From: Emiliania huxleyi CCMP1516
Taxonomy: Eukaryota
Assembly (NCBI RefSeq): GCF_000372725.1
Contig: NW_005201318.1
Coordinates: 293,016-357,015, forward strand
Length of the DNA stretch: 64,000 nucleotides
Reading direction: 5' to 3'
Shown here: positions 11,113 through 63,265 of the stretch, piece after piece
Layout of the letters: each line of letters starts with the position of its first letter
Position numbering within the stretch: position 1 is the stretch's first letter
Notes under the pieces: model-generated
What the model was told of the DNA's origin: nothing
The model's input: only the letters and a program-made list of their open reading frames with translations
Database searches by the model: none
Made by a program: the position numbers and the translations under genes

Positions 11113-11164
11113 TTCTTTTCTCGCACAACACTGGGCACGGGACTGGCGCGCACTGGCACTAACA
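11113..11164 (-). mobile_element. 52-bp extreme 3' fragment related to the non-LTR family at 46513-51704, with a 10-bp TSD
   Basis: Direct repeat cgttgtaaaa at 11103-11112 and 11165-11174. The insert carries gactggcgcgcactggcacta and ends ...aagaa on the minus strand, like the long element. Confidence 0.75.
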
Positions 11165-12183
11165 CGTTGTAAAAATCTTTTCATTGGCCTCCGGGGAAAC
11201 TGCGCTCTGCGGGATCGGTCCCATTACCCGTGGGGCCCGGGACCCGGCGGCGAAAGTTTGGTCCCGTTCGGCCACACGGACGTTAGCGGCTGTGGTTTCG
11301 GCCTGCACCCTCTCACGGCTCCGAGAGGGGCGCGAGAGGCCGGAGACAGGTCCACCTTGGCGCTCGCGTCGAGCTGCGAGGCCGGATCCGAGGCCGCCAG
11401 GCCGTTGGTAGCATCAGATGGAACACCCGCGCAGCCGATTTTTATACGCGAAAAGTACCCGACGGACTCACGAGGGCACACACTCGGCGGTCTCGCGACA
11501 GAGTAGACGGCTCACGGGGAGGAAAGAACAGAAGCTAAGGATGGGGACGCGGTTAGGGGTGTGCCGTCTTCGAGTCTGGCGGCTCGCGCTCGGCCGGGAC
11601 CAACGCTCGAGCCTCCGCCCCTCGGACGGGATCCGGAGAGCGCGCGTACCACCCGGCGTCGGCGAGCTGCGGAGCTGGCGGGAGCGGCACGACCGACGGC
11701 AGCGACGCGGGAGACCGGTGCGGTCGCAGCGCTGCAGAGTTGCAGCACCACGACCGCATCGACTGAGCGCATCGGCATGCCGCATGCGCGAGAGGAGGGT
11801 GTGCGGGTGCATGCCCGGGCCGTGAGGGCTGGCTGAAGCGCCGCTCGGGCGGCCGCAATCATCAATCATGACTTTGAATGAAGCGGCCTCGTTCACAACT
11901 CTCAAGAACCACCTTAATGATTAAAGCATTTAACCCAAACGGGCGAGAGCGACGGCGAGTCGCCGCTAGCACGAACGGACACGAGCAAGTCGTCGAGATG
12001 CCGCTGCGGGCACGGCGCTGAGGTTACACTGAGGAGGAGAGACGGGCGGCTTCGGCGCCTCCTAGTCCTGCACAGAAGAGGCGCCGGCAGGACGTTGGAG
12101 AAGAGCGGTAGAGGCGGAGCGGCTGGCGGCGGAAAAGAGCGTGAAGAGGCGCGCACGCGCACGCTCACAAAGCAAAAAGGCTC

Positions 12184-25800: not shown

Positions 25801-28800
25801 TCACACGTATCCGTAAACGTAGAACTTGCACACCGTCAGCCCCGTCGCAGACGGCCGGTTGAGGTAGATGTAGCGCCCCAACGCGTTGATCTCCACCTCC
25901 AACATCACGTTCGACAACACGCTCACGTCTGACTTCACCAGCGCGTTGCCCGTGTACGTCTCTGCCGTCGTGCCGAGATAGATGTCAATGCCGGTCAGAC
26001 GATGTGGGCAGCAGTCGTTGCGGTTCTGCAGCCGCACGTAGCGCACATACACCTCGCTCCCGAGGTCGACGCCCCACCACTGGCTTGTGTATTGGCCGCA
26101 CTCGGCCCACGGCCGTCCCGTCGTGCTGTCGGCGTATGACAGGTCGCTCACGGGCGCCTGCTTGTCGAACAAGCTCGAGTCCTGGTAAGTGGTGGCGGCG
26201 CTGAGGTCGAGCAGCTGCACGTCAGGCGGCGGCGGCGACGGCGAGGCGGACGGCGGCGGCGGAGAGGGCGAGGCGGACGGCGGCGGCGCAGGAGGGTACC
26301 CCGGCGGGGCCGCCGGCGGGGCCGACGGCGGTGGCGAAAGCGGCGGCGGCGACGGCAGCGAGGGCGAGGCGGACGGAGGCGGTGGCGATGGTGAGGCGGA
26401 CGGCGGCGGGGGCGAGGGCGATGCCGAGGGAGGCGGCGGCGACGGCGACACGGATGCCGGCGGGGGTGACGGCGATGCTGGGGGCGGCGGGGGCGACGGC
26501 GATGCTGAGGGCGGCGGCGGAGATGGTGAGGCGGACGGAGGCGGCGGCGACGGCGACGCGGATGGCGGCGGCGGCGACGGCGAGGCCGACGGAGGCGGCG
26601 GGGACGGCGACGCGGAGGGAGGCGGTGGCGACGGCGACGCGGAAGGAGGTGGACCATTGCGATTTCCTGCGAAGACGTAGAACTTGCACACCGTCAGCCC
26701 CGCCGCAGACGGCCGGTTGAGGTAGATGTAGCGCCCCAACGCGTTGATCTCCACCTCCAACATCACGTTCGACAACACGCTCACGTCTGACTTCACCAGC
26801 GCGTTGCCCGTGTACGTCTCCGCCGTCGAGCCGAGATAGATGTCGACGTCCGTCAGCCGCTCCGCGCAGCAGTCGTTGCGGTTCTGCAGCCGCACGTAGC
26901 GCACATACACCTCGCTCCCGAGGTCGACGCCCCACCACTGGCTTGTGTATTGGCCGCACTCGGCCCACGGCCGTCCCGTCGTGCTGTCGGCGTATGACAG
27001 GTCGCTCACGGGCGCCTGCTTGTCGAACAAGCTCGAGTCCTGGTACGTGGTGGCGGCGCGGAGGTCGAGCAGCTGCACGTCAGGCGGCGGCGGCGACGGC
27101 GAGGCGGACGGCGGCGGCGGCGACGGCGAGGCGGACGGCGGCGGCGCAGGCAGGGCGGAGGGAGGCGGCGGCAGAGGCGGCGGCGGCGACGGCGAGGCGG
27201 ACGGCGGCGGGGAGGGAGAGGCGGAGGGAGGCGGTGGCGACGGCGACGCGGAAGGAGGTGGCGGGGAGGGAGAGGCGGAGGGAGGCGGCGGCGAGGGCGA
27301 CGCGGACGGAGGCGGCGGCGACGGCGAGGCGGAAGGAGGCGGCGGCGAGGGCGAGGCGGACGGAGGCGGTGGCGATGGTGAGGCGGACGGCGGCGGGGGC
27401 GAGGGCGATGCCGAGGGAGGCGGCGGCGACGGCGACACGGATGCCGGCGGGGGTGACGGCGATGCTGGGGGCGGCGGGGGCGACGGCGATGCTGAGGGCG
27501 GCGGCGGCGACGGTGAGGCGGACGGAGGCGGCGGCAACGGCGAGGCGGATGGCGGCGGCGGCGACGGCGAGGCCGACGGAGGCGGCGGGGACGGCGACGC
27601 GGAGGGAGGCGGTGGCGACGGCGACGCGGAAGGAGATGGACCATTGCGATTTCCTGCGAAGACGTAGAACTTGCACACCGTCAGCCCCGCCGCAGACGGC
27701 CGGTTGAGGTAGATGTAGCGCCCCAACGCGTTGATCTCCACCTCCAACATCACGTTCGACAACACGCTCACGTCTGACTTCACCAGCGCGTTGCCCGTGT
27801 ACGTCTCTGCCGTCGTGCCGAGATAGATGTCAATGCCGGTCAGACGATGTGGGCAGCAGTCGTTGCGGTTCTGCAGCCGCACGTAGCGCACATACACCTC
27901 GCTCCCGAGGTCGACGCCCCACCACTGGCTTGTGTATTGGCCGCACTCGGCCCACGGCCGTCCCGTCGTGCTGTCGGCGTATGACAGGTCGCTCACGGGC
28001 GCCTGCTTGTCGAACAAGCTCGAGTCCTGGTACGTGGTGGCGGCGCGGAGGTCGAGCAGCTGCACGTCAGGCGGCGGCGGCGACGGCGAGGCGGACGGCG
28101 GCGGCGGCGACGGCGAGGCGGACGGCGGCGGCGCAGGCAGGGCGGAGGGAGGCGGCGGCAGAGGCGGCGGCGGCGACGGCGAGGCGGACGGCGGCGGGGA
28201 GGGAGAGGCGGAGGGAGGCGGTGGCGACGGCGACGCGGAAGGAGGTGGCGGGGAGGGAGAGGCGGAGGGAGGCGGCGGCGAGGGCGACGCGGACGGAGGC
28301 GGCGGCGACGGCGAGGCGGAAGGAGGCGGCGGCGAGGGCGAGGCGGACGGAGGCGGTGGCGATGGTGAGGCGGACGGCGGCGGGGGCGAGGGCGATGCCG
28401 AGGGAGGCGGCGGCGACGGCGACACGGATGCCGGCGGGGGTGACGGCGATGCTGGGGGCGGCGGGGGCGACGGCGATGCTGAGGGCGGCGGCGGCGACGG
28501 TGAGGCGGACGGAGGCGGCGGCGACGGCGAGGCGGATGGCGGCGGCGGCGACGGCGAGGCCGACGGAGGCGGCGGGGACGGCGACGCGGAGGGAGGCGGT
28601 GGCGACGGCGACGCGGAAGGAGGTGGACCATTGCGATTTCCTGCGAAGACGTAGAACTTGCACACCGTCAGCCCCGCCGCAGACGGCCGGTTGAGGTAGA
28701 TGTAGCGCCCCAACGCGTTGATCTCCACCTCCAACATCACGTTCGACAACACGCTCACGTCTGACTTCACCAGCGCGTTGCCCGTGTACGTCTCTGCCGT

Positions 28801-31800
28801 CGTGCCGAGATAGATGTCAATGCCGGTCAGACGATGTGGGCAGCAGTCGTTGCGGTTCTGCAGCCGCACGTAGCGCACATACACCTCGCTCCCGAGGTCG
28901 ACGCCCCACCACTGGCTTGTGTATTGGCCGCACTCGGCCCACGGCCGTCCCGTCGTGCTGTCGGCGTATGACAGGTCGCTCACGGGCGCCTGCTTGTCGA
29001 ACAAGCTCGAGTCCTGGTACGTGGTGGCGGCGCGGAGGTCGAGCAGCTGCACGTCAGGCGGCGGCGGCGACGGCGAGGCGGACGGCGGCGGCGGCGACGG
29101 CGAGGCGGACGGCGGCGGCGCAGGCAGGGCGGAGGGAGGCGGCGGCAGAGGCGGCGGCGGCGACGGCGAGGCGGACGGCGGCGGGGAGGGAGAGGCGGAG
29201 GGAGGCGGTGGCGACGGCGACGCGGAAGGAGGTGGCGGGGAGGGAGAGGCGGAGGGAGGCGGCGGCGAGGGCGACGCGGACGGAGGCGGCGGCGACGGCG
29301 AGGCGGAAGGAGGCGGCGGCGACGGCGAGGCGGACGGAGGCGGTGGCGATGGTGAGGCGGACGGCGGCGGGGGCGAGGGCGATGCCGAGGGAGGCGGCGG
29401 CGACGGCGACACGGATGCCGGCGGGGGTGACGGCGATGCTGGGGGCGGCGGGGGCGACGGCGATGCTGAGGGCGGCGGCGGAGATGGTGAGGCGGACGGA
29501 GGCGGCGGCGACGGCGACGCGGATGGCGGCGGCGGCGACGGCGAGGCCGACGGAGGCGGCGGGGACGGCGACGCGGAGGGAGGCGGTGGCGACGGCGACG
29601 CGGAAGGAGGTGGACCATTGCGATTTCCTGCGAAGACGTAGAACTTGCACACCGTCAGCCCCGCCGCAGACGGCCGGTTGAGGTAGATGTAGCGCCCCAA
29701 CGCGTTGATCTCCACCTCCAACATCACGTTCGACAACACGCTCACGTCTGACTTCACCAGCGCGTTGCCCGTGTACGTCTCTGCCGTCGTGCCGAGATAG
29801 ATGTCAATGCCGGTCAGACGATGTGGGCAGCAGTCGTTGCGGTTCTGCAGCCGCACGTAGCGCACATACACCTCGCTCCCGAGGTCGACGCCCCACCACT
29901 GGCTTGTGTATTGGCCGCACTCGGCCCACGGCCGTCCCGTCGTGCTGTCGGCGTATGACAGGTCGCTCACGGGCGCCTGCTTGTCGAACAAGCTCGAGTC
30001 CTGGTACGTGGTGGCGGCGCGGAGGTCGAGCAGCTGCACGTCAGGCAGCGGCGGCGACGGCGAGGCGGACGGCGGCGGCGGCGACGGCGAGGCGGACGGC
30101 GGCGGCGCAGGCAGGGCGGAGGGAGGCGGCGGCAGAGGCGGCGGCGGCGACGGCGAGGCGGACGGCGGCGGGGAGGGAGAGGCGGAGGGAGGCGGTGGCG
30201 ACGGCGACGCGGAAGGAGGTGGCGGGGAGGGAGAGGCGGAGGGAGGCGGCGGCGAGGGCGACGCGGACGGAGGCGGCGGCGACGGCGAGGCGGAAGGAGG
30301 CGGCGGCGAGGGCGAGGCGGACGGAGGCGGTGGCGATGGTGAGGCGGACGGCGGCGGGGGCGAGGGCGATGCCGAGGGAGGCGGCGGCGACGGCGACACG
30401 GATGCCGGCGGGGGTGACGGCGATGCTGGGGGCGGCGGGGGCGACGGCGATGCTGAGGGCGGCGGCGGCGACGGTGAGGCGGACGGAGGCGGCGGCGACG
30501 GCGAGGCGGATGGCGGCGGCGGCGACGGCGAGGCCGACGGAGGCGGCGGGGACGGCGACGCGGAGGGAGGCGGTGGCGACGGCGACGCGGAAGGAGATGG
30601 ACCATTGCGATTTCCTGCGAAGACGTAGAACTTGCACACCGTCAGCCCCGCCGCAGACGGCCGGTTGAGGTAGATGTAGCGCCCCAACGCGTTGATCTCC
30701 ACCTCCAACATCACGTTCGACAACACGCTCACGTCTGAGTTCACCAGCGCGTTGCCCGTGTACGTCTCTGCCGTCGTGCCGAGATAGATGTCAATGCCGG
30801 TCAGACGATGTGGGCAGCAGTCGTTGCGGTTCTGCAGCCGCACGTAGCGCACATACACCTCGCTCCCGAGGTCGACGCCCCACCACTGGCTTGTGTATTG
30901 GCCGCACTCGGCCCACGGCCGTCCCGTCGTGCTGTCGGCGTATGACAGGTCGCTCACGGGCGCCTGCTTGTCGAACAAGCTCGAGTCCTGGTACGTGGTG
31001 GCGGCGCGGAGGTCGAGCAGCTGCACGTCAGGCGGCGGCGGCGACGGCGAGGCGGACGGCGGCGGCGGCGACGGCGAGGCGGACGGCGGCGGCGCAGGCA
31101 GGGCGGAGGGAGGCGGCGGCAGAGGCGGCGGCGGCGACGGCGAGGCGGACGGCGGCGGGGAGGGAGAGGCGGAGGGAGGCGGTGGCGACGGCGACGCGGA
31201 AGGAGGTGGCGGGGAGGGAGAGGCGGAGGGAGGAGGCGGCGAGGGCGACGCGGACGGAGGCGGCAGCGACGGCGAGGCGGAAGGAGGCGGCGGCGAGGGC
31301 GAGGCGGACGGAGGCGGTGGCGATGGTGAGGCGGACGGCGGCGGGGGCGAGGGCGATGCCGAGGGAGGCGGCGGCGACGGCGACACGGATGCCGGCGGGG
31401 GTGACGGCGATGCTGGGGGCGGCGGGGGCGACGGCGATGCTGAGGGCGGCGGCGGCGACGGTGAGGCGGACGGAGGCGGCGGCAACGGCGAGGCGGATGG
31501 CGGCGGCGGCGACGGCGAGGCCGACGGAGGCGGCGGGGACGGCGACGCGGAGGGAGGCGGTGGCGACGGCGACGCGGAAGGAGGTGGACCATTGCGATTT
31601 CCTGCGAAGACGTAGAACTTGCACACCGTCAGCCCCGCCGCAGACGGCCGGTTGAGGTAGATGTAGCGCCCCAACGCGTTGATCTCCACCTCCAACATCA
31701 CGTTCGACAACACGCTCACGTCTGACTTCACCAGCGCGTTGCCCGTGTACGTCTCCGCCGTCGAGCCGAGATAGATGTCGACGTCCGTCAGCCGCTCCGC

Positions 31801-33512
31801 GCAGCAGTCGTTGCGGTTCTGCAGCCGCACGTAGCGCACATACACCTCGCTCCCGAGGTCGACGCCCCACCACTGGCTTGTGTATTGGCCGCACTCGGCC
31901 CACGGCCGTCCCGTCGTGCTGTCGGCGTATGACAGGTCGCTCACGGGCGCCTGCTTGTCGAACAAGCTCGAGTCCTGGTACGTGGTGGCGGCGCGGAGGT
32001 CGAGCAGCTGCACGTCAGGCGGCGGCGACGACGGCGGCTGCGCAGCCCAGCACACCTGTAAGAGGGGGGGGGGGGGGGGGGCTCACTTGTTCCAGAGCAC
32101 CATTGCCAGGCCAGAGACGTGCGGCGCGGCCATGGAGGTCCCACTCTTCGAACCGTAGCCCGGGGGGCCGACCCCAGTGTAGCTCGGGGGGCCTAGGTAG
32201 GAGACAATGATCGCGTGAGAGCGGTGGGAGAGCGGCGGCGCTGCGGCCTTCTCGCACAGGGGTGGCACCGACAGTCGATTTGATGTCGACGCCTGGCGCT
32301 GCGATGTCGATCTCGTCGTTGTACTGCGAGAAGCTCGCCTTCTTGTCGTTGCTGTCGGTGGCGGCGACGCTCATGACCGAGGAGTAGGACGCCGGGTAAA
32401 AGTAGCTGCTATCTCCGCCGTTGCCGGCGGCCGCGATGCTGAGGATGCCGTCATTAAAGAATTTCTGGAAGGCATCACGCTCAAAGTCCGACGAAAACCC
32501 ACCTCCGAGCGACACTGCGGAAGGCCGGGGGGGGGGGGGTTAGATGAGTCAAAGACGGGTAGCGGATCTAGGCACGCTCACTCGAGAGGATCTTGGCTCC
32601 GCTGTCGACACATCGCTGAGCCGCATCGACGAGTGTTGAGGCATAGGTCCAGCCACACGCCTCATTCTGGTAGGGCGTGCTGGGGTCGTCGAGCAAGCCG
32701 ACCTCCCCAAACACCTTGACTATCTTCAGGTCAGGCGCGCCCGGATAGACACCGACCACTCCCTCCCCGTTGCCACCGACCGCGGCGATGGTGCCCGCGA
32801 CATGCGTGCCTGGTGGGACGGAGGGAGGGAGGGTGGGGTAGAGGGGGCGGACGGAGAGATGGCGGGGAGGGGATATGGCGGCGGAGAGGGCGGCGGAGAG
32901 GGCATGCGTGCCGTGGTTGCAGATGTCGTCGCCGAAGTAACGCGTGCCGGCTGGGTCAGCTTGGGACGGGTCCGCCGCGGTGGCGTCAGAGGGGAGGTCA
33001 GGGTGTGCGAGCAGGTAGCCAGAGTCGATGATGCACAGCGGATGCGTCACCGCCGACGGGAAGAAGGAGGCGTCCGGCACCGCTTCGTTGTACACACGCT
33101 CGATCCCCCATGGCATTTCCTCGGCTAGCTGCCGCTTCCGCGAAGCCGAGGCCGAGCTTGTTGCTAGGAAGCGCCGCTGATCCTCCTCGACCCTTAGCCC
33201 CGAGCGCTCCGCCTGGTCCTGGAAGGCTCGCGCCGTGCTGTTGTCCTCGAATTCGACCACTGTGAGGGTTTTGAGGGCTGCTTCGATTGTCTTCTTGACC
33301 TCTCCGCCCACAACATCCGCCATCTGCGCCACCTTGCTTGGAGCTCGCGCGCCACCCTTGGTCGTCGCCACGTTGGTCTGCTTTGCCTCGGTGACAACGT
33401 ACCGAATCTTGGGGGGGTTTGCGGGCGGGCTAGGCGGCTCTGTCGCGCGCGGGCGGCCTTTCGTGGCAGGCGCCGCCGCGGCGGACGCCAGCAGGGCAAG
33501 AAAGAGGCAAGG
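25801..33512 (-). CDS. Secreted subtilisin (S8) protease followed by seven F-type-lectin/discoidin-like domains with SPSPPPP linkers
   Basis: Signal peptide MPCLFLALLASAAAA, triad motifs IIDSG, HGTHVAGTIAA and GTSMAAPHVSG, plus AAGN and IAAPG. Seven copies of WWGVDLG...QNRNDCC..RL...GRYI...LTVC. Confidence 0.9.
25810..32020 (-). repeat. 987-bp coding tandem repeat (lectin domain plus Pro-rich linker)
   Basis: Identical shadow ORFs recur every 987 bp (27006, 27993, 28980, 29967, 30954). The last linker is shorter. Confidence 0.95.
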
Positions 33513-46145: not shown

Positions 46146-46607
46146 TCGGAGGAAGTGGGCAGCAGCCACGCCCACGCTGTCAAAAGCAAGCGGGGACACC
46201 GTTCACGGAGCTGAAAACTGCGTGGCGCACAAGATGATGCTCAACCACTACCGCCAGACCAAAAACATGCTCGTCTCGTACGACAAGTCCAAGCTCGGTT
46301 AGAAAACTTACCCTTGCGAGCAGCTTTTAAGGGAGCGGGAGGCGGCGGCGCAGTCGCAGGACGAGGCCGCAGAGGAGAGCGACGCGACAGAGGAAGAAGC
46401 GACAAGAGAGAGAACGACGAGAGTGGGACGACCGCGAGGTGGCATGAAGGTTGCAGCGAGAATCGGCGAGAGACTGCGAAGAGAGATAGGAGGCGCCTGC
46501 TTGTGGAAAGAATTCTTAAGATACAAGCCTCTCTCACAGCACACTGGCACGACAAGGGCGCGGACTGGCGCGGACTGGCACACACACAGGCTCACCACCG
46601 GAGCCGC

Positions 46608-47060
46608 CTAAGCGACTCCGTTAAGAACGGCAATGCACTCCGCACCATGCACAATGCCGCTCTCCCCGCACGCTAGCTCGTTCACCGTCTGCCACGCCAC
46701 GGCGGTGTGGAGGACGACAGACAAGCGCTGCATCTGCAGCCCGTGCCAGTTCTTGGTGGTCCATGTGACCTCGTCCAGGTGCTGAGCGTGCGAAAGTTTG
46801 TTGCTCAGCTGGTTCGCCGCCTCCCTCAGGGTGCTGCGAACCTCCTTTCCAAAGCCTCCGAAAGCCTCAAAATCAAACAAACGTAGATCGCAATCCTGCT
46901 GCCGCGCAAAGGGGTAATCGCCAGGCAGCTCCTTGAGCTTTCCCTTGGGGGCATCCTCCTCCTCCCCCTCCTCCCCCTCCTCCTCGGCCTCCTCCTCCTC
47001 CCCCGCCACCGCCGCTGCCGTCGCTCCCGACGGAGACCACTTGTGTATCGCGCGCCTTGC
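46608..47060 (-). CDS. C-terminal ORF resembling the distal half of a restriction-like endonuclease of CRE/Dualen-type elements
   Basis: LFDFEAFGGFGKEV...L...W...QRLSVVLH resembles the E.xGxxG...QRLSxxL tail of RLE elements. The catalytic PD..D motif is not visible. A paralogue lies at 57243-57386. Confidence 0.5.
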   Translation of the reverse strand, partial: ARRAIHKWSPSGATAAAVAGEEEEAEEEGEEGEEEDAPKGKLKELPGDYPFARQQDCDLRLFDFEAFGGFGKEVRSTLREAANQLSNKLSHAQHLDEVTWTTKNWHGLQMQRLSVVLHTAVAWQTVNELACGESGIVHGAECIAVLNGVA

Positions 47061-47335
47061 GGGGGGGGGCGCGGAAAAGAGGAACCTCTTAGCGCCATCG
47101 CCACGGTGCTGCATGCAGCGCCGGGCGACGACGGCTTACCGCCTCCCGGTCCCCCTCGGCACACCTCCGCTGCTCAATGTTTGACGGCTCGAACCCGTGA
47201 AGCTTCCCCGTGCGCGGGTTACCCCGCACACGGGTCAGCCTGCCAGCCACGTATCCACGCAAGCGTGGTCCGCGTGCATGGCATACAGGCGTCCGCCAGA
47301 CAGCGCAGAGGCTAGGCGACCGGGGAAGGACTAGC

Positions 47336-50300
47336 TCAAGGGCAACACAGCGTCACCAGCCGTTGGCGCGCAGAACGAGTCTGCGGCTCTCGGTTGGGAC
47401 GAGTGCGCGACGCGGTTGAACCGCTCAATATGGCCGGCAGCTCGCGCTGCCGGCGGGGTTGGTTGGGGAGAACCGGCACGGGGAAGGCCGGCCTCCCCGG
47501 AGGGGTCGCCCCCTGGAGGGGCCCCAAAGGGCCCCCCCCGGGGGGGCGGGGGCCCCCGCCCCGAGGGGCGGGGGCGGGTCCTTCCGTGTCGCTCCCCTCG
47601 TCGGGAGTGTCCGTCGGGATGGTGTTGTCTGCCCACTCGGCAGCGTTTGAGCCTCTGTCACCTTGCCTGCCGCGAGCAGCTAGCTCGTCGACGTAGTCGT
47701 TCCATTTGTTGCCGCTGTGACCCGCCACATGCCTCCACGTCACGGTGTGTTTGGCGCGAAGGCGTCGCCAGAGGGAACGAAGGCGCTCCGCTAGCTGTCT
47801 GTTCGTTTTGGGGGTCACCCTCCCCATCATGCACGCCGCCGCGTACTCGCTGTCGGTCCGCACTACTCCGCGTGAGCCCGCTCGTTGCGGTGACGAGGAC
47901 AGGAGAGCCCGGAGGAGCTCGGCTAGGGCGGTTAGTTCCGCCGTGTTGTTGGTATGCCTGCGCGCGCCGAGGTAGGCTGGGTGCGCCGCCGAAGTGACAA
48001 CTGGCCCGTAGCCCTCGCTCGCCAGCGACGCGCCCCTATCGCCGATTGCGTCGCCCCCGATGAGTACTGTATAGGCCCACCCTGCTTTCCCTAGGTCTTC
48101 CGACCCGTCTGTGTATGCCACCCAGTCGGGCGGGCGTCGTTGCGCCTGCTCTGCCAGTTGCTGCTGTGGGCGAAGAACGACCCCTGGTGCCTCGACCATT
48201 AGTCTCAGCTTGACCCGGCATGCCCCCCCTTCACCCTGAGGCGCTACACAGAGGAGTGCGACTGTGCTCACCGCGCAGCCGTTTGCCGCCACCCCTCGGA
48301 CAGATTCGAGCGTCTCGGGGAGCTCGCACTCACCTTCGCTGGAAAAGAATCCTGAGGCGAGCCACTCCGTCTCCCACTCCGCAACAGGCCCCTCCCCTGG
48401 CGACGGCTGCCAGCCCGGGATTCGGAGGCGAATCGCCTTCTCCTCGTCGAGAGCTCGGCGGCGGGTGTGGGCGTAAGTCCGGATTAGGGCTCGGCGCGCC
48501 TCGTTGTAGATCGTGTCAACTCGCACGTCCGGTGTGTCTTCCAGCGCGAGGAGGGCGTTCCGGTGGCGCCGTCGGAGGATGCCTGCAAGTGTCTCAAGCA
48601 TAATAACGCGAGTCGGCGTCGCCCCAATGCGCCCCTCAGCCATTTGTCCTCTGCCCGTGGTCAGACGGAACCCGGTGATGCAGAGGCGGCGGTATTCGTG
48701 GACTAGCTGCTCCCTCCCCATGCCCCGTACCTCCTCTAGCACGGCTTCATCCAGGGTCGTGCTTTCCAGGACTGCGCGGAGTACCGCCTCGAGGGTCAGT
48801 GTGGTGTATGGACATTCGAGGGCGAGGTGGCGTGTCGTTTCGATTGCTCTCACGCCGCCCAGTAGGCCGCACAGGTCGCACAGCCCCCGTCGACGTGGCT
48901 TCTTACATCGTCGCGGTCCAACCGGTAGCGCATCAGTCAACACTGAGTACGCCGTGTCTGACGTCGGCCGTGATAGGGACCTGTCGTGGATAGAGCGGAA
49001 GATAGACCGCGCTATCTTTCGTTCATCAGAGGCTGTGCTCTCGCCATTCCCCTCTCCCCCCCCGTCGCCGTCGCCATCGTCACTGTCGCCCTCGCCGTCA
49101 CTTGGCTCATCTCTGCCTCCGTCCCCACCTACGTCGCTGCCGTCGGAGGGGCCCAATGCGGCGGTAAAGGCGTCTAGGAGTGGGCCAGCGACTGCCTCCT
49201 GCGCTAGCCACTCATCCTTCTCCTCGGATGCGTCCCGCCATCGCACCTTGTACTCCGGCTCCCCTCGCTCGATGTTTGTGCGCTGCGCCAAGATGTACTC
49301 GATTTCCCACTCTCGGTTCGTGTCGTCTTGGATCGCGCGCCCTTCTCGTTCGGTATGAGCCAATAGATCATAGAAGCGCGTCGTGGCCGTTGCATCGTCC
49401 GGCGGGCGGGATGGGTCAAGGGTACGCATCGGTCGGTAGACCCGTGAGAGGTGTAGCGATGCGAGGTGCTTGACGGCCAGTTTCACCAGCGGCACCGCGG
49501 CGCGCACTCGCGTGGTAGGCGCGTACTGCACTGCCCACCTGGATGGGCTAGCCGCAATCTCCCATCCTTCGCTGGTCGTGGCGGCCCGCTGCATGAGGGC
49601 CGCCCTTATCACCGGTCCGCCGCACACCAACCTCTTGAGTTTCCGTGGCGCCCCCTTTTCTGCCCGGGCTCGGCGCGACTCCGGCCCCCACTCCTCGCGT
49701 GTGACGCTCGCAGAGGATTGTCCACCGTCCTCCCATACCTCCACTTCGCACCATCCGCCCGCGCCTCTTTCCCTCACCGTTGCGAGGCTCGGCGCTCCGG
49801 TCTCATCTTGCGTTGTTGCCCTGAGCTCTCCGGTTTCCATCCATTCGAAGACCGGTGCCTCACCTTGTGTGGGTGCGACCCATCGCCTGCCCTGCCCGTT
49901 ATCATTCATGCATGTCCATGCATTCCCAGGCAGGTCGCTCGTTCGCACGCATTCCTGCCAATCTATTGGGCGAGGGCGATTGAGAACGGCGTCTCGGAGG
50001 GTGATTAGCCACGCCTCTGGCAGGCTTTCAATTAATCGGCTGTATTCGTGTTGGTCGCAGGGCGGGTTTGGGTGGCAGCTTCTCCTAAACTCGCGCCAGG
50101 CCATTGGCAGGCCGTCCCCGCCAAGGAGGTGCACTACGTGTGTTACCCCGACTTCTGCGAATCGCACCGATCGCTCGTAGACCTCCCGTGCGTCTTCCTC
50201 TCTTTCATTGGTCCACCGGCAGAGTTTGGGTTTCGGTTTCTTGTCTCTGGCCAGTCGCTCCCAGTCCGGGCTGTCGAGTACCGCTGCGCCCCACCAGCCC

Positions 50301-51695
50301 GACAGGTGTGGGTTGTAGAATAGCGGCTCCATTAACACGCGTCCGATCGACCAAAGCCCCCCCACTCGCACTGTCCTCGGTACGCCCGCCCTCGCCTGTC
50401 GGTACGTGACTTCAGGTGTGTGGTCTTTCTGTGCGGCGTCCTCACCATCGTACGGTACCAGTCCTCTCAGAGTGCCATGCGTCTTGAGTGCGATGCGCCA
50501 GTAGGCGGGCATCGTATCGGGGAGATTGAGAAAATCGCACGAGGAGTGGAAGAGCCGTCGCCCCATGCGGAGGTGCCCGTATGCTCGATTGACGTAGGAC
50601 GCCACTATATTCACGCCTTTGTGTGACGACGGCGTGACCAGGCGGCTCACCTGGCGCTGGTATAAGCTGCGTGTGAATATCTCGATGTCCTGGCAGTGTT
50701 GTCCGCCCTCGGGTCGCTCTTGGATGAGCGTCTCGCGTTTTACCGCGTGTCGGCGTGCCTGGTGTAGGCCCTCCGCGTTTGCCGGCGCCTCAAAGAAATT
50801 CCACGCGTACCGCTGCCATTTCTCGAGCATTTGGGGTAGGTTGGGCGGCGTCTGCGACTGCACCAGGTACCACGCACAGGATTGCACGTGATTCTTGATG
50901 ACTATATTTCGGCCCCGTCTTGAGCGAGGCATGCCTCGTCCCACCCATCGCTCATACCGCTTCTCCATCTTTGCCGTCACAGTCTCCTCCCACTTGCGGG
51001 CTATCCTCTCTGGGGCGCCGAGAAAAATGCCGAGATATCGGATGAGCGGGCTCGTTGTGTTGATGTCGCGTCTCTCCTCCCACCCCTGCGGCAGGTCGGT
51101 CGAGTCCCGGAGCGACCCGACCCTCATGCCAAAAGTCTTAGACCATGAGTTCAGCGCGCCCGACCCGTCCTCGTAGATATTTAGCAGTCGTTTGAATTCA
51201 TTGAGCTGGCCGGTGTTTCGTAGGAATATGATCAAATCGTCGGCGAACCCTAGCACTTTTAGGGTGTGGCGCAGTTGGTCGTCGCCTCCCGTCCCGGGAA
51301 TTTCCACTCCCTGGAGAGTGTCGGTTGTGCTGATGAGGGAGAGGAAGCTCTGTATCACCAAAAGGTACAGAATGGGGGATAGCGGGCCTCCTTGTGACAC
51401 TCCGTTTGTCGGTCTGAACGCCCCTCCAATGTGCGAGTTGACCTTGACTTTGTACTCGCTGTTCTCGTATAGTATTTCTACCATTCGCCTGAAGTCCTCG
51501 TGAATACCCATCGATTGCATCACCTGGTGCATAAAGTCCCATTGCACTCGCGGGTACGCATTGTCCTGATCGCAAAAGAGTAGAAACCCCCCCTCCATGA
51601 GCTCATCCGCCCATGCGATGTAATCTTGCACGAGCTGTGTGTTCTCGACGATGAGTTTTCCGGCTTGGAAAGCCTTCTGGTCCGGGGAGACTTGC
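47336..51695 (-). CDS. Non-LTR polyprotein fragment: L1/Tx1-type reverse transcriptase, chromodomain, CCHC-type finger, RNase H
   Basis: RT: SPDQKAF, DQDNAYPRV, GVSQGGPLSPILY, FADD (~51240), YLG (~51035). Chromodomain: EWEIEYILAQR..EYKVRW...DEWL (~49205-49315). CDLC...HLALEC (~48810-48895). RNase H: YTDGS, TNNTAEL, TDSEY, HVAGHSGNKWNDYVDELA (~47680-48120). Confidence 0.92.
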
Positions 51696-51730
51696 CGCGC
51701 CCTTTTGTGGAAAGAAAATAAATTCCTGCG

Positions 51731-53146
51731 ATGCCCGCTCCGCGGCGCCGCTCGCGCCGCCTCGCCTCCGCAGCCGCTCCCTCGCCAGACACGCCGCCGC
51801 CCATCCGCCTCCTCGACCTCCCCACGGACCTCCTCGCGCGCGTCATCTCCCGCTGCGACCCCGCCGACATCGCTCGCGTCGCGGCCGTCTCGCTGCTCTT
51901 CCACGCCTCGCTTGCGCTGGAGGGCATCCGCTTGCGCCTGCAAGAGGCCGGCTACGAGCCGCCGGCGCAGCCAGAGGGCGAGAGCTGCGCCGTGCGGTGG
52001 CTGTGCTATTCTGCGCTGCTGTGCGAGTCCAACCTGCCGGCGAGGGCGTTGGCAGGCGAACGGCACAGCGTCTTCATCGACGGCGAGGGGCGGCTCTCGT
52101 CGTGCGGAACGGCTGAGAGCTGGAGGCCAGGACTGCTCGGGCACGGCGAGGGGGTGACGCAGCTCAACACGCCGACCCGCCTCCCTTTCCCGCTGGGCGG
52201 CGAGCGCGCCGTGAGCGTGTCGGCTGGAGGTCTGCACAGCTGGGCCCTCGCCGCCGACGGCGCTGTCTGGAGCTGGGGCTTTGGTCTCCACGGCCGGCTG
52301 GGCCACGGCGACGAGCAGGAGCAGCTGCTGCCGAAGAAGGTCGAGGCCTTGGCTCGCCAGCGCACCGTCGCTGTGTCGGCTGGAGCCGCGCATAGCCTCG
52401 CCCTCACCGCCAACGGCGCCGTCTGGAGCTGGGGCTGTGGAGGCCTTGGCCGCCTGGGCCACGGCGACGAGCAAACCAAGCTGCTGCCGAAGAAGATCGA
52501 GGCCTTGGGTGGCCAGCGCGTCGTCGCTGTGTCGGCTGGAGCCATCCACAGCATCGCCCTCACCGCCGACGGCGCCCTCTGGAGCTGGGGCGGTGGAGGC
52601 TGGGGCCAGCTGGGCCATGGCGGCGGGCAGCACCATCTGCTGCCAAAGAAGGTCGAGGCCTTGGCGGGGAAGCGCGTCGTCGCTGTGTCGGCCGGAGCGT
52701 ACCACAGCATCGCCCACACCGCCGACGGCGCCGTCTGGAGCTGGGGCTATGGAGGCCTTGGTAAGTTGGGCCACGGTGACTCGCAGAACCAGTTCCTGCC
52801 GAAGAAGGTCGAGGCGTTGGCCGGTCAGCGTGTCGTCGCTGTGTCGGCTGGAAGCAGCCACAGCCTCGCCATCACCGCCGACGGCGCCGTCTGGAGCTGG
52901 GGCGGGGGAGATGAGGGCCGGTTGGGCCACGGCGACCAGCAGAACCAGCTGCTGCCCAAGAAGGTTGAGGCGTTTGCTGACCAGCGCGTCCTCGCTGTGT
53001 CGGCTGGGCTCGCGCACAGTCTCGCCATTACCGCCGACAACGCCGTCTTTACCTGGGGCAAGGGCGAGGGCGGCTGCCTAGGCCACGGAGAGGACCTGTC
53101 CAACCAGCTGCTGCCCAAGAAGATCGAGACGTGGGCGCCGGGGTAG
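51731..53146 (+). CDS. Intronless F-box plus RCC1-repeat protein
   Basis: LLDLPTDLLARVISR F-box, then about seven VSAGxxHSLALTADGAVWSWG..GxLGHG repeats. Confidence 0.92.
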   Translation: MPAPRRRSRRLASAAAPSPDTPPPIRLLDLPTDLLARVISRCDPADIARVAAVSLLFHASLALEGIRLRLQEAGYEPPAQPEGESCAVRWLCYSALLCESNLPARALAGERHSVFIDGEGRLSSCGTAESWRPGLLGHGEGVTQLNTPTRLPFPLGGERAVSVSAGGLHSWALAADGAVWSWGFGLHGRLGHGDEQEQLLPKKVEALARQRTVAVSAGAAHSLALTANGAVWSWGCGGLGRLGHGDEQTKLLPKKIEALGGQRVVAVSAGAIHSIALTADGALWSWGGGGWGQLGHGGGQHHLLPKKVEALAGKRVVAVSAGAYHSIAHTADGAVWSWGYGGLGKLGHGDSQNQFLPKKVEALAGQRVVAVSAGSSHSLAITADGAVWSWGGGDEGRLGHGDQQNQLLPKKVEAFADQRVLAVSAGLAHSLAITADNAVFTWGKGEGGCLGHGEDLSNQLLPKKIETWAPG

Positions 53147-53283: not shown

Positions 53284-53358
53284 CCTGTCTTAGTGCCAGT
53301 GCGCGCCAGTCGCCCGTGCCAGTGTCGGCAGTGTCGTGTCTCGTGCGGAGAGAGAGGG
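53284..53358 (+). mobile_element. Copy of the retroelement 3'-terminal motif downstream of the RCC1 gene
   Basis: cctgtcttagtgccagtgcgcgccag matches the reverse complement of 57200-57225 at 25/26 nt. A 21-nt core is identical to the reverse complement of 11141-11161. Confidence 0.75.
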
Positions 53359-57189: not shown

Positions 57190-57386
57190 TTCTTTCTTTC
57201 TGGCGCGCACTGGCACTAACACAGGTACACCACGGGAGCCGCCTAAGCGACTCCTGCGAGGACGGCGAGGCACTTAGCTCCGTGCCGCACCCGACCGCCC
57301 TCGCCGCAGGCAAGCGCATTCACAATCTGCTCTGCGATTGCCGTGTGAAGAACGACCGAGATACGCTGCTCTGCAGCCCTAGCCGC
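57190..57386 (-). mobile_element. 5'-truncated 3' fragment of the same non-LTR family
   Basis: Encodes QRISVVLHTAIAEQIVNALACGEGGRVRHGAKCLAVLAGVA* (stop at 57243), versus QRLSVVLHTAVAWQTVNELACGESGIVHGAECIAVLNGVA* at 46608. Followed by the same 3' UTR motif. Confidence 0.85.
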
Positions 57387-58800
57387 GTGCACCTCGATCC
57401 TGTACCGTGTTTGTTATGACCCACCCCACTGAGGGAACAAACACAAATGACGTGTGAGTGTTAGAGTTGTTTGGTATTGCTAAAAATCTCTCTGCCCCCC
57501 CAATGAACACACCAGAGAGGGAGGGCGAGACGATCGAGGGGTCCCGTACCATGCGGAATCGACCCTATCCAGTGCGCTCAAAGTGCTCAACTCTTGGTGG
57601 TCCAAGTCACCTCATCGAGGTAACTGGGCCCGCGGCAGCTTGTTCTGCGGCACGTTCGCCGCCTTCCAGAGGATCTCGCCGACCCCCTTCCCGTTTCCCG
57701 AACCCCCACCGGAGCTGCGCGCGGACGCCGATTTCTTTTCCACTCGTCCTCCCGGCCGCCCGCTCGGCGCGTGCGGCGACGCGTGCGCCACGTGAGCCCG
57801 CACGAGACCCGAGCCCTGCTCTCTCCCTACATGTACCACACGAAGTCGCCCATGCACCTCAGGCCTCAGGCGCCCGGCCCCCGCCCGCCCGGAGGCGGCG
57901 GAGCAGCCCCCACGCGTCGCCGCAAGGCCGCTCGAATTGGCCGCCTTCCTTCTCGACTGCATTCACTTCCTACATGATACAGAATTTTACAACACAAAAC
58001 TCGCAAACAACAAAAGGCGCGCACACGCTGGCGCTCGCTGGGGGTGGGGCACCCTATATAACGCCACAGGCCGTTTTGATGAAGAATTTCCGAAACAAAT
58101 AATTCTTTGCCGCCGGCGCTATTAGTATTACACAAATACAGAAAATACTCCAAATTCATTTGATGACGGCCGGCGCCTTCCCAAAGAGGCCACGGACGCT
58201 CTTGGGCGAGGCGGCGAGGCGGCGCTGCTGGCGTGGCTCGACAGCAGCGGGCGGGTCGGCGCCGGAGGAGGCTCAAGGAGGAGCAGACGACACAGAGGAG
58301 GATGGCGACGGCCGGAGGACTGCCCAGCGAGAGCAGGCAGGAAACTGCTAGAGGCGATCACCGTTTGCGCACAGTGCCGCTCAGCTTCTCCTCCGAGGCC
58401 ATCTTTTGCGACAGGATGAGCTCTTGCAGCCGCGCCGTCATCTCCTCCACCTCGCGTTCGCGCGCCTTTTTGAACCGCGGATGCATCGGGAGCGAGGGGC
58501 CAGGCGGCCGTGGCGTGGGGTATGTATCGCACACGTGTCGTGGGCGCGCCGGAGTGGGAGTGTGCGCTGGTGGCGCTGCGCTGGTGGCGCTGCGCAAGGG
58601 CGACGCGGCGCCTGCACCGCGTCGCAGAGCGCTGCCGCACGCTCCTCTGCCGCCACAACCTCAACACGCAGCGCCGCCTCGCGCGCTTCGGCCGCTTTCT
58701 CGGCCGCCTTTCGCTGCTCGTCATGCGCCGCGACCTCTGTGGCGCACCGCTGCCGCTCCGCCTCCAACGCCGCGGAGACCGCCTTCTCAACCGCGCTCGC

Positions 58801-62020: not shown

Positions 62021-63265
62021 CATGGCTCATGCGCAGTGTGTGCACAAGATACTGCAGGTATAAGCGCATACATGCGCTCCCATCACAATGTGGGCCACAA
62101 CCCGCACAGGACAAGCTTTCACCACAAGCATGCTTTCACCAAGCATCCCTTTCACCAGCACAGGCTTCGCTCATATGAAACAAGATTGTCTGCCCTCGCA
62201 GGTCATTGGTCACTGCCTGCATCGCTGAATACACTGACTGCAACGCCAAGCAACAAAAGCTTGCAATTGTGGCCGGCGAAGTTGCCTGCGCGTGGTCATC
62301 GAATGCACAATAGAGAGGGGAAGACGAAGTTCCACCGCATCAGTGACCGTCCTGCCAAGCTCCCTACGAACTGATCAATATGACCCGGAGCACTACCCAA
62401 GCCACACTGCTTATAGAGCTCCGCCTCAATGCTTTCGACAGCAGACAAGGAAAACCCACCACCGTACAGAGCCTCATCATCAGCAATGCCCATCTGTGAC
62501 AGACTGTTTCGACGGCATTGTTTGATTGTACATATGCTGCGAGGCGCGATGCTACCCATGTGCCATGAAGAGTATGACGTTTGCGATGCAGGAAGAGCGA
62601 GGCCTCTAGTTGCGCACATTCGCGGGTTGTAAAGATGATTCGAGGCCTCCTTAGCATCGCATGTACTAGCCACAGCGAAAAGAAAGAAAGAAAAACACGG
62701 GCGGATGGGAGGACGGCCTGCCGCCACCATACAGGGATTTTATTCTAACGGAGGAAAAGAGAAAATGGCACAACCTTGGTATCGACATACCTAAAACTTT
62801 GGTATCGTGAGGAGAAGAGTGTGGTGCGCTAGCCGTCGCCCACCCTTGGGCCTCTGCCTCTTCCTATCTTTCTTCGCAGGCCCTCGCCGATTCTCTCGCT
62901 GCAACCTTCATGCCACAGCTGTTGTGTTTCGCCTGCTCCGCTGCCGCAATTTTTTTCTTCCTTGCGGTGTCTGTTTCCTTGCGGGTGTTAATGTAGACCA
63001 GCAGGTGAGAAGATAAAAAAGTGGCGGGTCTAGGAATAAAAAAACATGGAGTGCGAGGTACTCGGCTTTCAATCCCAAACTGTCACTCCCCGTTCTCCCG
63101 GCCGGGGTGGGGCGCGCGCGGGGGCGGCGGGTGTGCAATGTCCCCCTAGCATAACCCTAGCTAAAAAAAAAGCGGGCCCTGCAGTGTCCGTATTGGTCGG
63201 ACAGAATCCTACTTTGTGGCGGCTCGCCGTCCAGAGTGGCGGCTCGCCGGCAAGGCGTCGCGCCA

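What the first reader, a model, noticed from the sequence alone, without database searches (positions are those of the whole stretch)
46501..51716. Non-LTR retrotransposon combining L1-type RT, a chromodomain, RNase H and an RLE-like tail
Seen: an exact 12-bp TSD (ttgtggaaagaa) brackets a 5.2-kb minus-strand element truncated just before the RT core. One open frame carries RT, a chromodomain-like segment with aromatic-cage residues (W..EYI...YKVRW...DEW), an acidic linker, a CCHC-type finger and an RNase H with its acidic catalytic motifs. A further ORF (46608-47060) looks like the distal half of a restriction-like endonuclease. Known: chromodomains are typical of LTR chromovirus integrases and uncommon in LINEs. 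L1-type RTs normally pair with an APE endonuclease, and Dualen/RandI elements carry RNase H with both APE and RLE. Inference: a chromatin-reading, possibly dual-endonuclease LINE lineage. The homopolymer-rich stretch 47060-47600 may hide sequencing frameshifts or a chimeric junction.
Basis: partly seen in the sequence, partly recalled or inferred. Interest (0 to 1): 0.82.

Follow-up and report, generated by a model that had tools for sequence, protein, structure and literature searches.

The report
Chromodomain LINE nested in another LINE
The 5.2-kb stretch is two jumping genes, one inside the other, and the inner one belongs to an L1-like lineage, likely of haptophyte algae, that carries a chromodomain predicted to read chromatin, a feature so far reported for LTR retrotransposons.

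Summary
The RT, chromodomain, CCHC finger, RNase H and 12-bp duplication are real. The dual-endonuclease idea is wrong. The 'RLE tail' is the last 144 codons of a separate, abundant RLE-type LINE (CRE-like) that has its own RT. It lacks the PD and D-x-K catalytic motifs. The 15 bases beside the far TSD encode that LINE's preceding residues (KGRGK). So a 4.65-kb 5'-truncated chromodomain LINE sits inside a 0.54-kb fragment of the other LINE with its own 5-bp duplication, and the 12-bp TSD belongs to the fragment. Two near-full-length copies (96% identical, about 9.7 kb) show APE-RT-chromodomain-CCHC-RNase H; the one that reaches the 3' end has no RLE tail. The chromodomain is an insertion in the zinc-finger region shared by 6 clusters, absent in sister families, and sits at a second position in 2 more. 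This family keeps only 2 of 3 methyl-lysine cage residues. Full-length copies also carry a predicted frame-switching intron in ORF1. I found no chromodomain LINE in the literature searched; Repbase could not be checked.

The parts
46501..46512 (.). Outer 12-bp target-site duplication, 3' copy; belongs to the CRE-like fragment
   Evidence: exact, only two copies in the window
46513..46607 (-). 3' UTR of the CRE-like LINE; similar motifs recur at 11120-11165, 53284-53325 and 57200-57274
46608..47042 (-). Last 144 codons and stop of a CRE-like RLE LINE ORF; no ATG of its own, no PD or D-x-K motif
   Evidence: 96-99% identical to P0008, P0009, P0011 over residues that start exactly at 47042
47039..47043 (-). 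Inner 5-bp target-site duplication CAAGT, 3' copy
47044..47330 (-). 3' UTR of the chromodomain LINE, ending in a short CA tail; strongly folded
   Evidence: L002 ends at the same place; loose ends with mixed flanks at 47042-47044 in runs X9 and X3; folding z = -4.87; no Rfam match with E below 0.95
47331..47668 (-). Low-complexity ORF end. In-frame deletion of about 400 nt at 47579/47580 and two extra G near 47532 relative to L001/L002; the family stop is at 47333-47331
   Evidence: both deleted and undeleted forms are seen in runs X1 and X12
47669..48121 (-). RNase H with D-E-D-H-D residues (His type)
   Evidence: Pfam RNase_H 55 bits; nearest NCBIfam model PRK00203 RNase HI, E 5e-9, on L002; motifs located
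48812..49021 (-). Second half of the zf-RVT-like region with the CCHC finger
   Evidence: Pfam zf-RVT positions 36-82 of 85, weak (E 0.14); relatives P0159 and P0149 E 0.0055 and 0.0021
49022..49150 (-). Acidic linker, fast-evolving
   Evidence: sequence; 1 synonymous and 10 non-synonymous codon changes between L001 and L002
49166..49309 (-). Chromodomain inserted ahead of the CCHC finger; cage positions W, W, A
49310..51016 (-). Thumb and lineage-specific extension, conserved across the clade, no Pfam family
51017..51691 (-). Reverse transcriptase, N-terminal part lost by 5' truncation
51690..51694 (-). Inner 5-bp target-site duplication CAAGT, 5' copy (3-nt microhomology with the element)
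51695..51704 (-). 10-bp 5' stub of the CRE-like fragment; with adjacent bases it reads KGRGK, the residues preceding WSP in the parent protein
   Evidence: KGRGKWSP is present in 25 fetched proteins
51705..51716 (.). Outer 12-bp target-site duplication, 5' copy; 11 bp before the ATG of an F-box/RCC1 gene on the + strand

Best explanation
This is a 5'-truncated copy of an L1-like LINE (APE, RT, chromodomain, CCHC finger, RNase H) that sits inside a short fragment of an unrelated RLE-type LINE, and its chromodomain likely helps steer insertion by binding chromatin. Shown: the nesting, the domain order, the APE fold, and that the tail belongs elsewhere. Inferred order of events: a 5'-truncated CRE-like copy (about 540 bp) inserted with a 12-bp duplication; the chromodomain LINE then inserted 10-15 bp from that copy's 5' end by target-primed reverse transcription, leaving a 5-bp duplication with microhomology at both ends. 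Inferred mechanism of the intact element: APE nicks the target, RT copies the RNA from its structured CA-ended 3' UTR, RNase H removes the template, and the chromodomain, placed in the C-terminal zinc-finger region, tethers the complex to chromatin (about 0.4 that it biases insertion in this family, whose cage is incomplete; higher for relatives with a full cage). Inferred expression: an 85-94-nt intron in ORF1 is removed to make ORF1p (about 0.7), while unspliced RNA is the template that gets copied and may be read as one ORF1-ORF2 protein of 3,100 residues (about 0.45). This copy has no APE or ORF1 and cannot move by itself.
For: Nesting: the tail homology starts exactly at 47042; the bases at the far TSD read KGRGK and the tail resumes with KWSP, giving the parent's KGRGKWSP (chance of KGRG at a fixed place about 3e-5); CAAGT flanks the insert on both sides; L002 ends at 47042-47044 and goes on into unrelated DNA; runs X9 (6 and 3 contigs) and X3 (8 contigs) have loose ends there with agreement of about 0.5, that is mixed flanks; tail and family proteins never overlap (0 of 38, 0 of 213). 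Intact architecture: L001 and L002 hold open frames of 3,075 and 3,131 codons from ATG; the model of the N-terminal nuclease region finds human L1 endonuclease first (E 9.6e-6); the RT finds L1 ORF2p at 68-70 bits against 43 and 26 for R2 proteins. Selection: window versus L001 and L002 has 121 and 117 synonymous against 48 and 55 non-synonymous codon changes. Depth falls steadily towards the 5' end in runs X2 and X10, as for a 5'-truncating LINE. Chromodomain: Pfam 46 bits in P0139, 45 in P0169, 38 in P0063; same site in 6 clusters, second site after the finger in 2 clusters; sisters P0281, P0261, P0119 and P0170 join directly across the first site. Intron: GT...CAG at the same aligned codon boundary in L001 and L002, lengths 94 and 85 (both 3n+1), lowest nucleotide identity of the conserved part of ORF1 (0.46-0.48), third-position GC 0.90 and 0.78 before it in frame A and 0.86 and 0.88 after it in the shifted frame.
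Against: The APE region has no Pfam or PDB sequence hit and its model is poor (mean pLDDT 41.7); support rests on the fold hit, on motifs, and on relatives P0120, P0179 and P0272 that do hit Exo_endo_phos. The chromodomain is less conserved than its flanks between families (0.50 and 0.36 against 0.70-0.74 and 0.50-0.54), shows 6 synonymous and 4 non-synonymous changes between L001 and L002, and lacks the third cage residue here. Nothing here measures insertion-site preference. The junction to the tail could not be tested for bridging contigs because 46947-47025 was masked as repeat. No empty site was seen. No spliced ORF1 was found (0 of 4 hits), the proposed splice pair ranked 8th of 8,432 candidate pairs by alignment score, and no RNA read was tested across it. 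Frame A is closed inside the proposed intron in P0107 and P0108, so the long fusion frame is not universal, and off-frames in ORF1 are often open by composition (15-64% of 90-codon windows).
Confidence: 0.85

Rival explanations
1. One dual-endonuclease LINE (APE plus RLE) with chromodomain and RNase H, broken here by sequencing frameshifts.
For: One exact 12-bp duplication brackets both parts and both are on the same strand. Dualen elements with both endonucleases exist (passage in PMC4640811).
Against: The family stop and a 287-nt structured UTR lie between RNase H and the tail. L002 has no tail. The tail lacks the catalytic motifs that its parent has upstream. The parent has a different RT.
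Confidence: 0.02
2. The nested pair moved as one unit: a source locus held the chromodomain LINE inside a CRE-like copy, and a read-through RNA was copied here, 5'-truncated just upstream of the nested insertion.
For: Only 10-15 bp of the CRE-like stub lie upstream of the insert, which is a coincidence of a few percent under simple nesting.
Against: It needs the same coincidence in the truncation point, and more steps. No second copy of the composite was seen in 5 loci or among 38 tail proteins.
Confidence: 0.1
3. The nesting is right, but the chromodomain in this family is a decaying passenger or binds RNA or DNA rather than methylated histone.
For: Cage positions are W/W/A here, W/F/A in P0001 and L/W/H in P0002. 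Sister families lack the domain altogether. It is the least conserved folded part.
Against: It is kept in frame across families only 36-50% identical in the domain. P0169 (F/W/Y) and P0178 (Y/W/Y) keep a full cage. A chromodomain occurs at two different positions in the clade.
Confidence: 0.4
4. The ORF1 frame switch is a programmed +1 ribosomal frameshift, or ORF2 simply starts at its own ATG (L001 2049, L002 2467), rather than splicing with an ORF1-ORF2 fusion.
For: That ATG is in the same place in both copies. The linker after it is weakly constrained (22 synonymous, 38 non-synonymous). No spliced product was found.
Against: Splice-like ends, a pyrimidine-rich 3' end and low conservation of the intervening segment in both copies. 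P0281 and P0202 also run ORF1-like and ORF2 sequence in one frame, with the same compositional dip after the ORF1-like part.
Confidence: 0.3

Closest known systems
RNase H-bearing L1 elements: plant Ta11 and oomycete L1 (passages of PMC5348765)
   Same: APE-RT-CCHC-RNase H order, with the CCHC motif upstream of a C-terminal RNase H.
   Different: Their RNase H is archaeal-like (Arg); this one has His and is nearest to bacterial RNase HI models. No chromodomain is described for them. Plant L1 rows fall outside this clade in the RT tree.
Chromoviruses, Chronos and CoDi-I LTR retrotransposons (PMC5348765, PMC10984392, bioRxiv 10.64898/2025.12.07.692804; passages)
   Same: A captured chromodomain proposed to direct integration; repeated independent capture.
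   Different: Those are LTR elements with the domain fused to integrase. Here it lies inside a LINE ORF2, ahead of or behind the zinc finger.
Human L1 ORF2p and Tx1-type elements
   Same: Best PDB matches for RT and for the nuclease model. Tx1-like L1 families are reported in the haptophyte Tisochrysis lutea (passages of PMC5963040).
   Different: ORF2 is about twice as long, has a chromodomain and RNase H, and is open in one frame with most of ORF1. The fish Tx1 row P0225 lies outside the 14-row clade.
Dualen/RandI (APE plus RLE; PMC4640811)
   Same: APE, RT and RNase H.
   Different: No RLE in the intact element. No Dualen reference was available for the tree.
CRE-group RLE LINEs (for the tail only)
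   Same: Single ORF with N-terminal Cys/His motifs, RT and a C-terminal PD..D-x-K nuclease (P0084).
   Different: The label CRE rests on motifs recalled from memory, not on a named reference; Atlas neighbours were unnamed RVT_1 clusters.
Ty1/Copia EVD splicing strategy (abstract of PMC5580714)
   Same: Predicted here: a spliced RNA makes the structural protein while unspliced RNA makes the enzymes and is the copied genome.
   Different: Shown there by RNA and mutants in an LTR element; here only predicted from two LINE copies.

Membership tests
L1 group LINEs (L1/Tx1) | APE endonuclease upstream of RT | tested here: met
   Fold hit to L1 endonuclease, motifs, Pfam hits in relatives; no direct Pfam hit for L001/L002
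L1 group LINEs (L1/Tx1) | RT closer to L1 than to RLE-type RTs | tested here: met
   68-70 bits to L1 ORF2p against 43 and 26 to R2; E 1e-32 to a Tx1-named plant protein against 0.004 to the tail's parent
L1 group LINEs (L1/Tx1) | Placement in a named clade (L1, Tx1, Proto1) by RT phylogeny | tested here: inconclusive
   Own clade of 14 unnamed rows at 98/81; deep nodes open; rows were picked as top hits to the query; no Proto1, Ambal or Dualen references
L1 group LINEs (L1/Tx1) | C-terminal CCHC zinc finger (zf-RVT) | tested here: met
   CCHC motif in sequence; Pfam second half only, E 0.14; aligns with canonical zf-RVT rows
L1 group LINEs (L1/Tx1) | ORF1 with RRM-type RNA-binding fold, separate from ORF2 | tested here: inconclusive
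   Model pLDDT 65.6 with two alpha/beta units; many RRM rows but none below E 0.017; ORF1 N-part is in frame with ORF2
L1 group LINEs (L1/Tx1) | 5' truncation and short target-site duplication | tested here: met
Dualen/RandI | Both APE and RLE in one ORF | tested here: not met
   No tail homology in L001 or L002; 0 of 213
Ta11 / oomycete L1 with archaeal-like RNase H | Arg in place of the active-site His | tested here: not met
   His present; bacterial RNase HI model E 5e-9 against 0.11 for the archaeal model
Canonical methyl-lysine-binding chromodomain (HP1/Polycomb type) | Chromodomain profile match | tested here: met
   30.0 bits over cut-off 25.1; 38 of 39 PDB rows at E up to 1 are chromodomain or chromatin-reader proteins by name
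Canonical methyl-lysine-binding chromodomain (HP1/Polycomb type) | Three aromatic cage residues | tested here: not met
   W/W/A in this family; met in relatives P0169 and P0178. Cage positions taken from the CBX5 alignment and recalled knowledge
Canonical methyl-lysine-binding chromodomain (HP1/Polycomb type) | Binds a methylated histone tail | not testable with these tools
   needs a binding assay
CRE group (tail only) | Single ORF with RT and C-terminal PD..D-x-K nuclease | tested here: met
   P0084, 1,439 aa, weak RVT_1 hit E 4e-5; QPDV in 6 and LV.DLKL in 7 of 38 tail proteins
CRE group (tail only) | RT groups with named CRE elements | not tested
   no named CRE reference could be fetched; no PDB hit
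Existing Repbase/Dfam family | Same architecture already curated | not testable with these tools
   no repeat library on hand

The most novel reading that the evidence does not exclude
An undescribed clade of giant L1-like LINEs in marine algae has captured chromodomains twice and RNase H at two positions, uses the chromodomain to choose insertion sites, and balances its two proteins by splicing: a retained intron gives ORF1p when removed and a 3,100-residue ORF1-ORF2 protein, plus the copied genome, when kept. That would be the LINE counterpart of both chromovirus targeting and Copia gag splicing.
Probability: 0.25. Interest if true: 0.8.

Novelty: new variant of a known kind. Interest (0 to 1): 0.58.

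Why it matters
How LINEs choose insertion sites beyond the nuclease's sequence taste is open. A natural series of close families with a full cage, a broken cage, no chromodomain, or a chromodomain at another site makes chromatin-directed LINE insertion directly testable. A frame-switching intron kept in a LINE would be a second way to set the ORF1p to ORF2p ratio. The case also shows that a perfect TSD can bracket a nested pair and mimic a new domain architecture.

Tried and rejected
No whole genome was held, so no genome consensus or empty-site search was possible. Viral contigs gave no relative and no match to a short motif spanning the parent's insertion site. Rfam found nothing in the 3' region; my first guess of a ribozyme there is unsupported. 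I recalled that Chlamydomonas ZeppL elements carry a chromodomain; the word occurs 0 times in the three Craig et al. texts searched, so I dropped it. Ten literature searches returned no LINE with a chromodomain and no LINE with an ORF1 intron; supplements were not opened and could hold such annotations. The Atlas gave no hit for ORF1. The wide structural search for ORF1 did not complete. Errors of mine that were corrected or dropped: the intron search window started too late (redone); three frames were off (redone); the window row in the alignment is out of frame and was ignored. Contig depth was used for shape only, not as copy number. RNA-run contigs cover much of the element but do not show transcription. 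Earlier scan notes held nothing on this element; one search listed only LTR elements.
Full report
Observation. The 12-mer duplication is exact and unique in the window, at 46501-46512 and 51705-51716. The minus-strand frame between them hits Pfam RVT_1, Chromo and RNase_H. Scanned alone, the chromodomain scores 30.0 bits against a cut-off of 25.1, and its PDB neighbours are HP1, CDYL and CBX proteins. The right flank is an F-box/RCC1 gene whose ATG lies at 51728. The host is likely Emiliania huxleyi or a close relative, because the tail protein is up to 100% identical to E. huxleyi gene models. No genome was held.

The tail is another element. A search with the tail gave 38 proteins. The longer ones continue upstream of window position 47042 into a PD motif, a D-x-K motif and an RT C-terminus. 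A cluster member, P0084 (1,439 aa), is a complete single-ORF element with its own RT, which barely aligns with the RT studied here (E 0.004) and falls on a long branch outside it. I call it CRE-like from recalled motifs only. The window holds just its last 144 codons, without the catalytic motifs. A more diverged piece of the same tail lies at 57200-57667 with no RT nearby. None of the 38 tail proteins matches the full-length chromodomain element, and none of 213 family or RT-search proteins carries the tail.

Nesting. The parent protein reads KGRGKWSP at the break (25 fetched proteins). In the window the 15 bases from the last base of the far TSD read KGRGK, and the tail resumes at KWSP. The five bases CAAGT stand on both sides of the insert, at 51694-51690 and 47043-47039, with short microhomology to the element at each end. 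So the 12-bp duplication brackets a 5'-truncated fragment of about 540 bp, and the 4.65-kb chromodomain LINE was inserted into it. L002 ends at the same base in a CA run and continues into unrelated DNA. In two public runs, contigs leave the window at 47042-47044 into mixed flanks (6 and 3 contigs in X9, 8 in X3). The repeat mask at 46947-47025 prevented a test for contigs bridging this junction. A variant in which the pair moved together from another locus cannot be excluded (0.1).

The intact element. A metagenome scan returned 5 loci. L001 and L002 are 96% identical to the window over 4.1 kb and extend 4.7-5.1 kb further 5'. Each has one open frame of 3,075 or 3,131 codons from ATG. The region before RT has the motifs of an APE nuclease. 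It gives no Pfam or PDB sequence hit, and its single-sequence model is poor (pLDDT 41.7), but the model's best structural matches are human L1 endonuclease structures (E 9.6e-6), and relatives hit Exo_endo_phos. The RT is nearer to L1 ORF2p than to R2. RNase H has the His-type site and is nearest to bacterial RNase HI models. Changes against the window are mostly synonymous (121 against 48, 117 against 55). The window copy has an in-frame deletion of about 400 nt at 47579/47580, also seen in runs X1 and X12, and two extra G that alter the last codons. The true 3' UTR, 47330-47044, folds far better than shuffles (z -4.87).

The clade. A search of 1.84 billion representatives and an RT tree of 37 rows give a group of 14 unnamed environmental rows (support 98/81) apart from fish Tx1 and plant L1 rows. 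The rows were chosen as top hits, deep nodes are open, and no Proto1, Ambal or Dualen reference was available. Domain mapping over 303 fetched proteins shows the chromodomain ahead of the CCHC finger in 6 clusters (this family, P0001, P0002, P0139, P0169, P0178), behind the finger in 2 (P0119/P0259, P0170; E 1e-6 and 3e-8 to a family profile, Pfam E 0.25 and 4e-5), and absent from P0281, which otherwise has the same order including RNase H. Five of the six first-site clusters are fragments without RT, so only L001 and L002 tie that site to the tree. Sister families join directly across the first site, so the domain with its acidic linker is an insertion or a clean loss. RNase H also moves: in P0202, P0179 and P0272 it lies soon after the RT.

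Cage. Against CBX5 the three cage positions read W, W, A here, W, F, A in P0001, L, W, H in P0002, and are complete in P0169 and P0178. The domain is less conserved than its flanks. Methyl-histone binding is therefore doubtful for this family and plausible for some relatives. I put chromatin-guided insertion in this family at about 0.4.

ORF1 intron (outside the finding's coordinates). Between L001 and L002 the conserved reading switches from the long frame to the +1 frame and ends at a stop after a Cys/His motif. At the switch both copies have a GT...CAG segment at the same codon boundary, 94 and 85 nt long, poorly conserved, with third-position GC moving to the new frame after it. Removing it would give ORF1 proteins of 475 and 476 residues. 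The ORF1 model has two alpha/beta units with weak RRM matches (best E 0.017-0.03). P0281 and P0202 show a similar compositional dip after an ORF1-like start in one long frame, P0261 less clearly, P0119 not. Against: no spliced protein among 4 hits; the splice pair ranked 8th of 8,432 by score; two relatives stop inside the segment, which fits an intron but not a universal fusion; and a shared downstream ATG could start ORF2. No RNA test was made.

Literature. What I saw: find-passages of PMC10984392, bioRxiv 10.64898/2025.12.07.692804, bioRxiv 10.1101/2020.06.13.149070, PMC8226300, bioRxiv 10.1101/2022.06.16.496473, PMC3747384, PMC4427930, PMC4640811 and PMC5963040; the first fifth plus passages of PMC5348765; the abstract of PMC5580714. 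PMC5348765 lists chromodomains only for LTR groups and describes CCHC-then-RNase H in Ta11 and oomycete L1. Ten searches found no chromodomain LINE. The library lacks most subscription papers, supplements were not opened, and Repbase was not available. I have an unverified memory of chromodomains in some algal or fungal LINEs, so novelty is probable, not certain.

Verdict. The dual-endonuclease element is an illusion made by nesting (confidence about 0.95 that the tail is foreign). The chromodomain-bearing L1-like lineage is real and looks undescribed. New variant of a known kind; interest 0.58.

Noticed in passing
L001:1371-1464, L002:1606-1690: Predicted frame-switching intron in ORF1; unspliced sequence stays open into ORF2 in both copies.
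   Followed up: partly
L001:1836-1910, L002:2085-2145: A 19-residue hydrophobic segment in the long frame just after the ORF1 stop, conserved in both copies and followed by a conserved REPNPEHGRP motif; role unexplained.
   Followed up: no
window 47056-47380: The element's own 3' UTR is covered several-fold deeper than the ORF end in runs X3 and X9, with loose ends at 47086-47103 and 47232: many very short copies or a SINE-like derivative.
   Followed up: no
window 57200-57667, 53284-53325, 11120-11165: Further 3'-end remnants of the CRE-like family; the one at 57200-57667 is itself interrupted by about 210 bp.
   Followed up: partly
window 51728-53146: Intronless F-box plus RCC1-repeat gene, very deeply covered in public runs and followed by the CRE-like 3' motif; may be a retroposed or mobilised gene family.
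   Followed up: no
window 46254-46500 and 62862-62916: The left flank is itself a very deeply covered repeat, so the pair sits between two repeated sequences.
   Followed up: no
window 25804-32082: A 987-bp tandem repeat (5.8 copies, 98% alike) inside a 2,093-codon minus-strand frame with proline-rich spacers.
   Followed up: no
P0006-P0043: Many E. huxleyi gene models have the CRE-like tail fused into unrelated proteins, probably annotation artefacts.
   Followed up: no
P0202, P0179, P0272, P0273: Related LINEs carry RNase H at other positions (soon after RT, or a degenerate one at the C-terminus), so RNase H was gained or moved more than once in the clade.
   Followed up: partly
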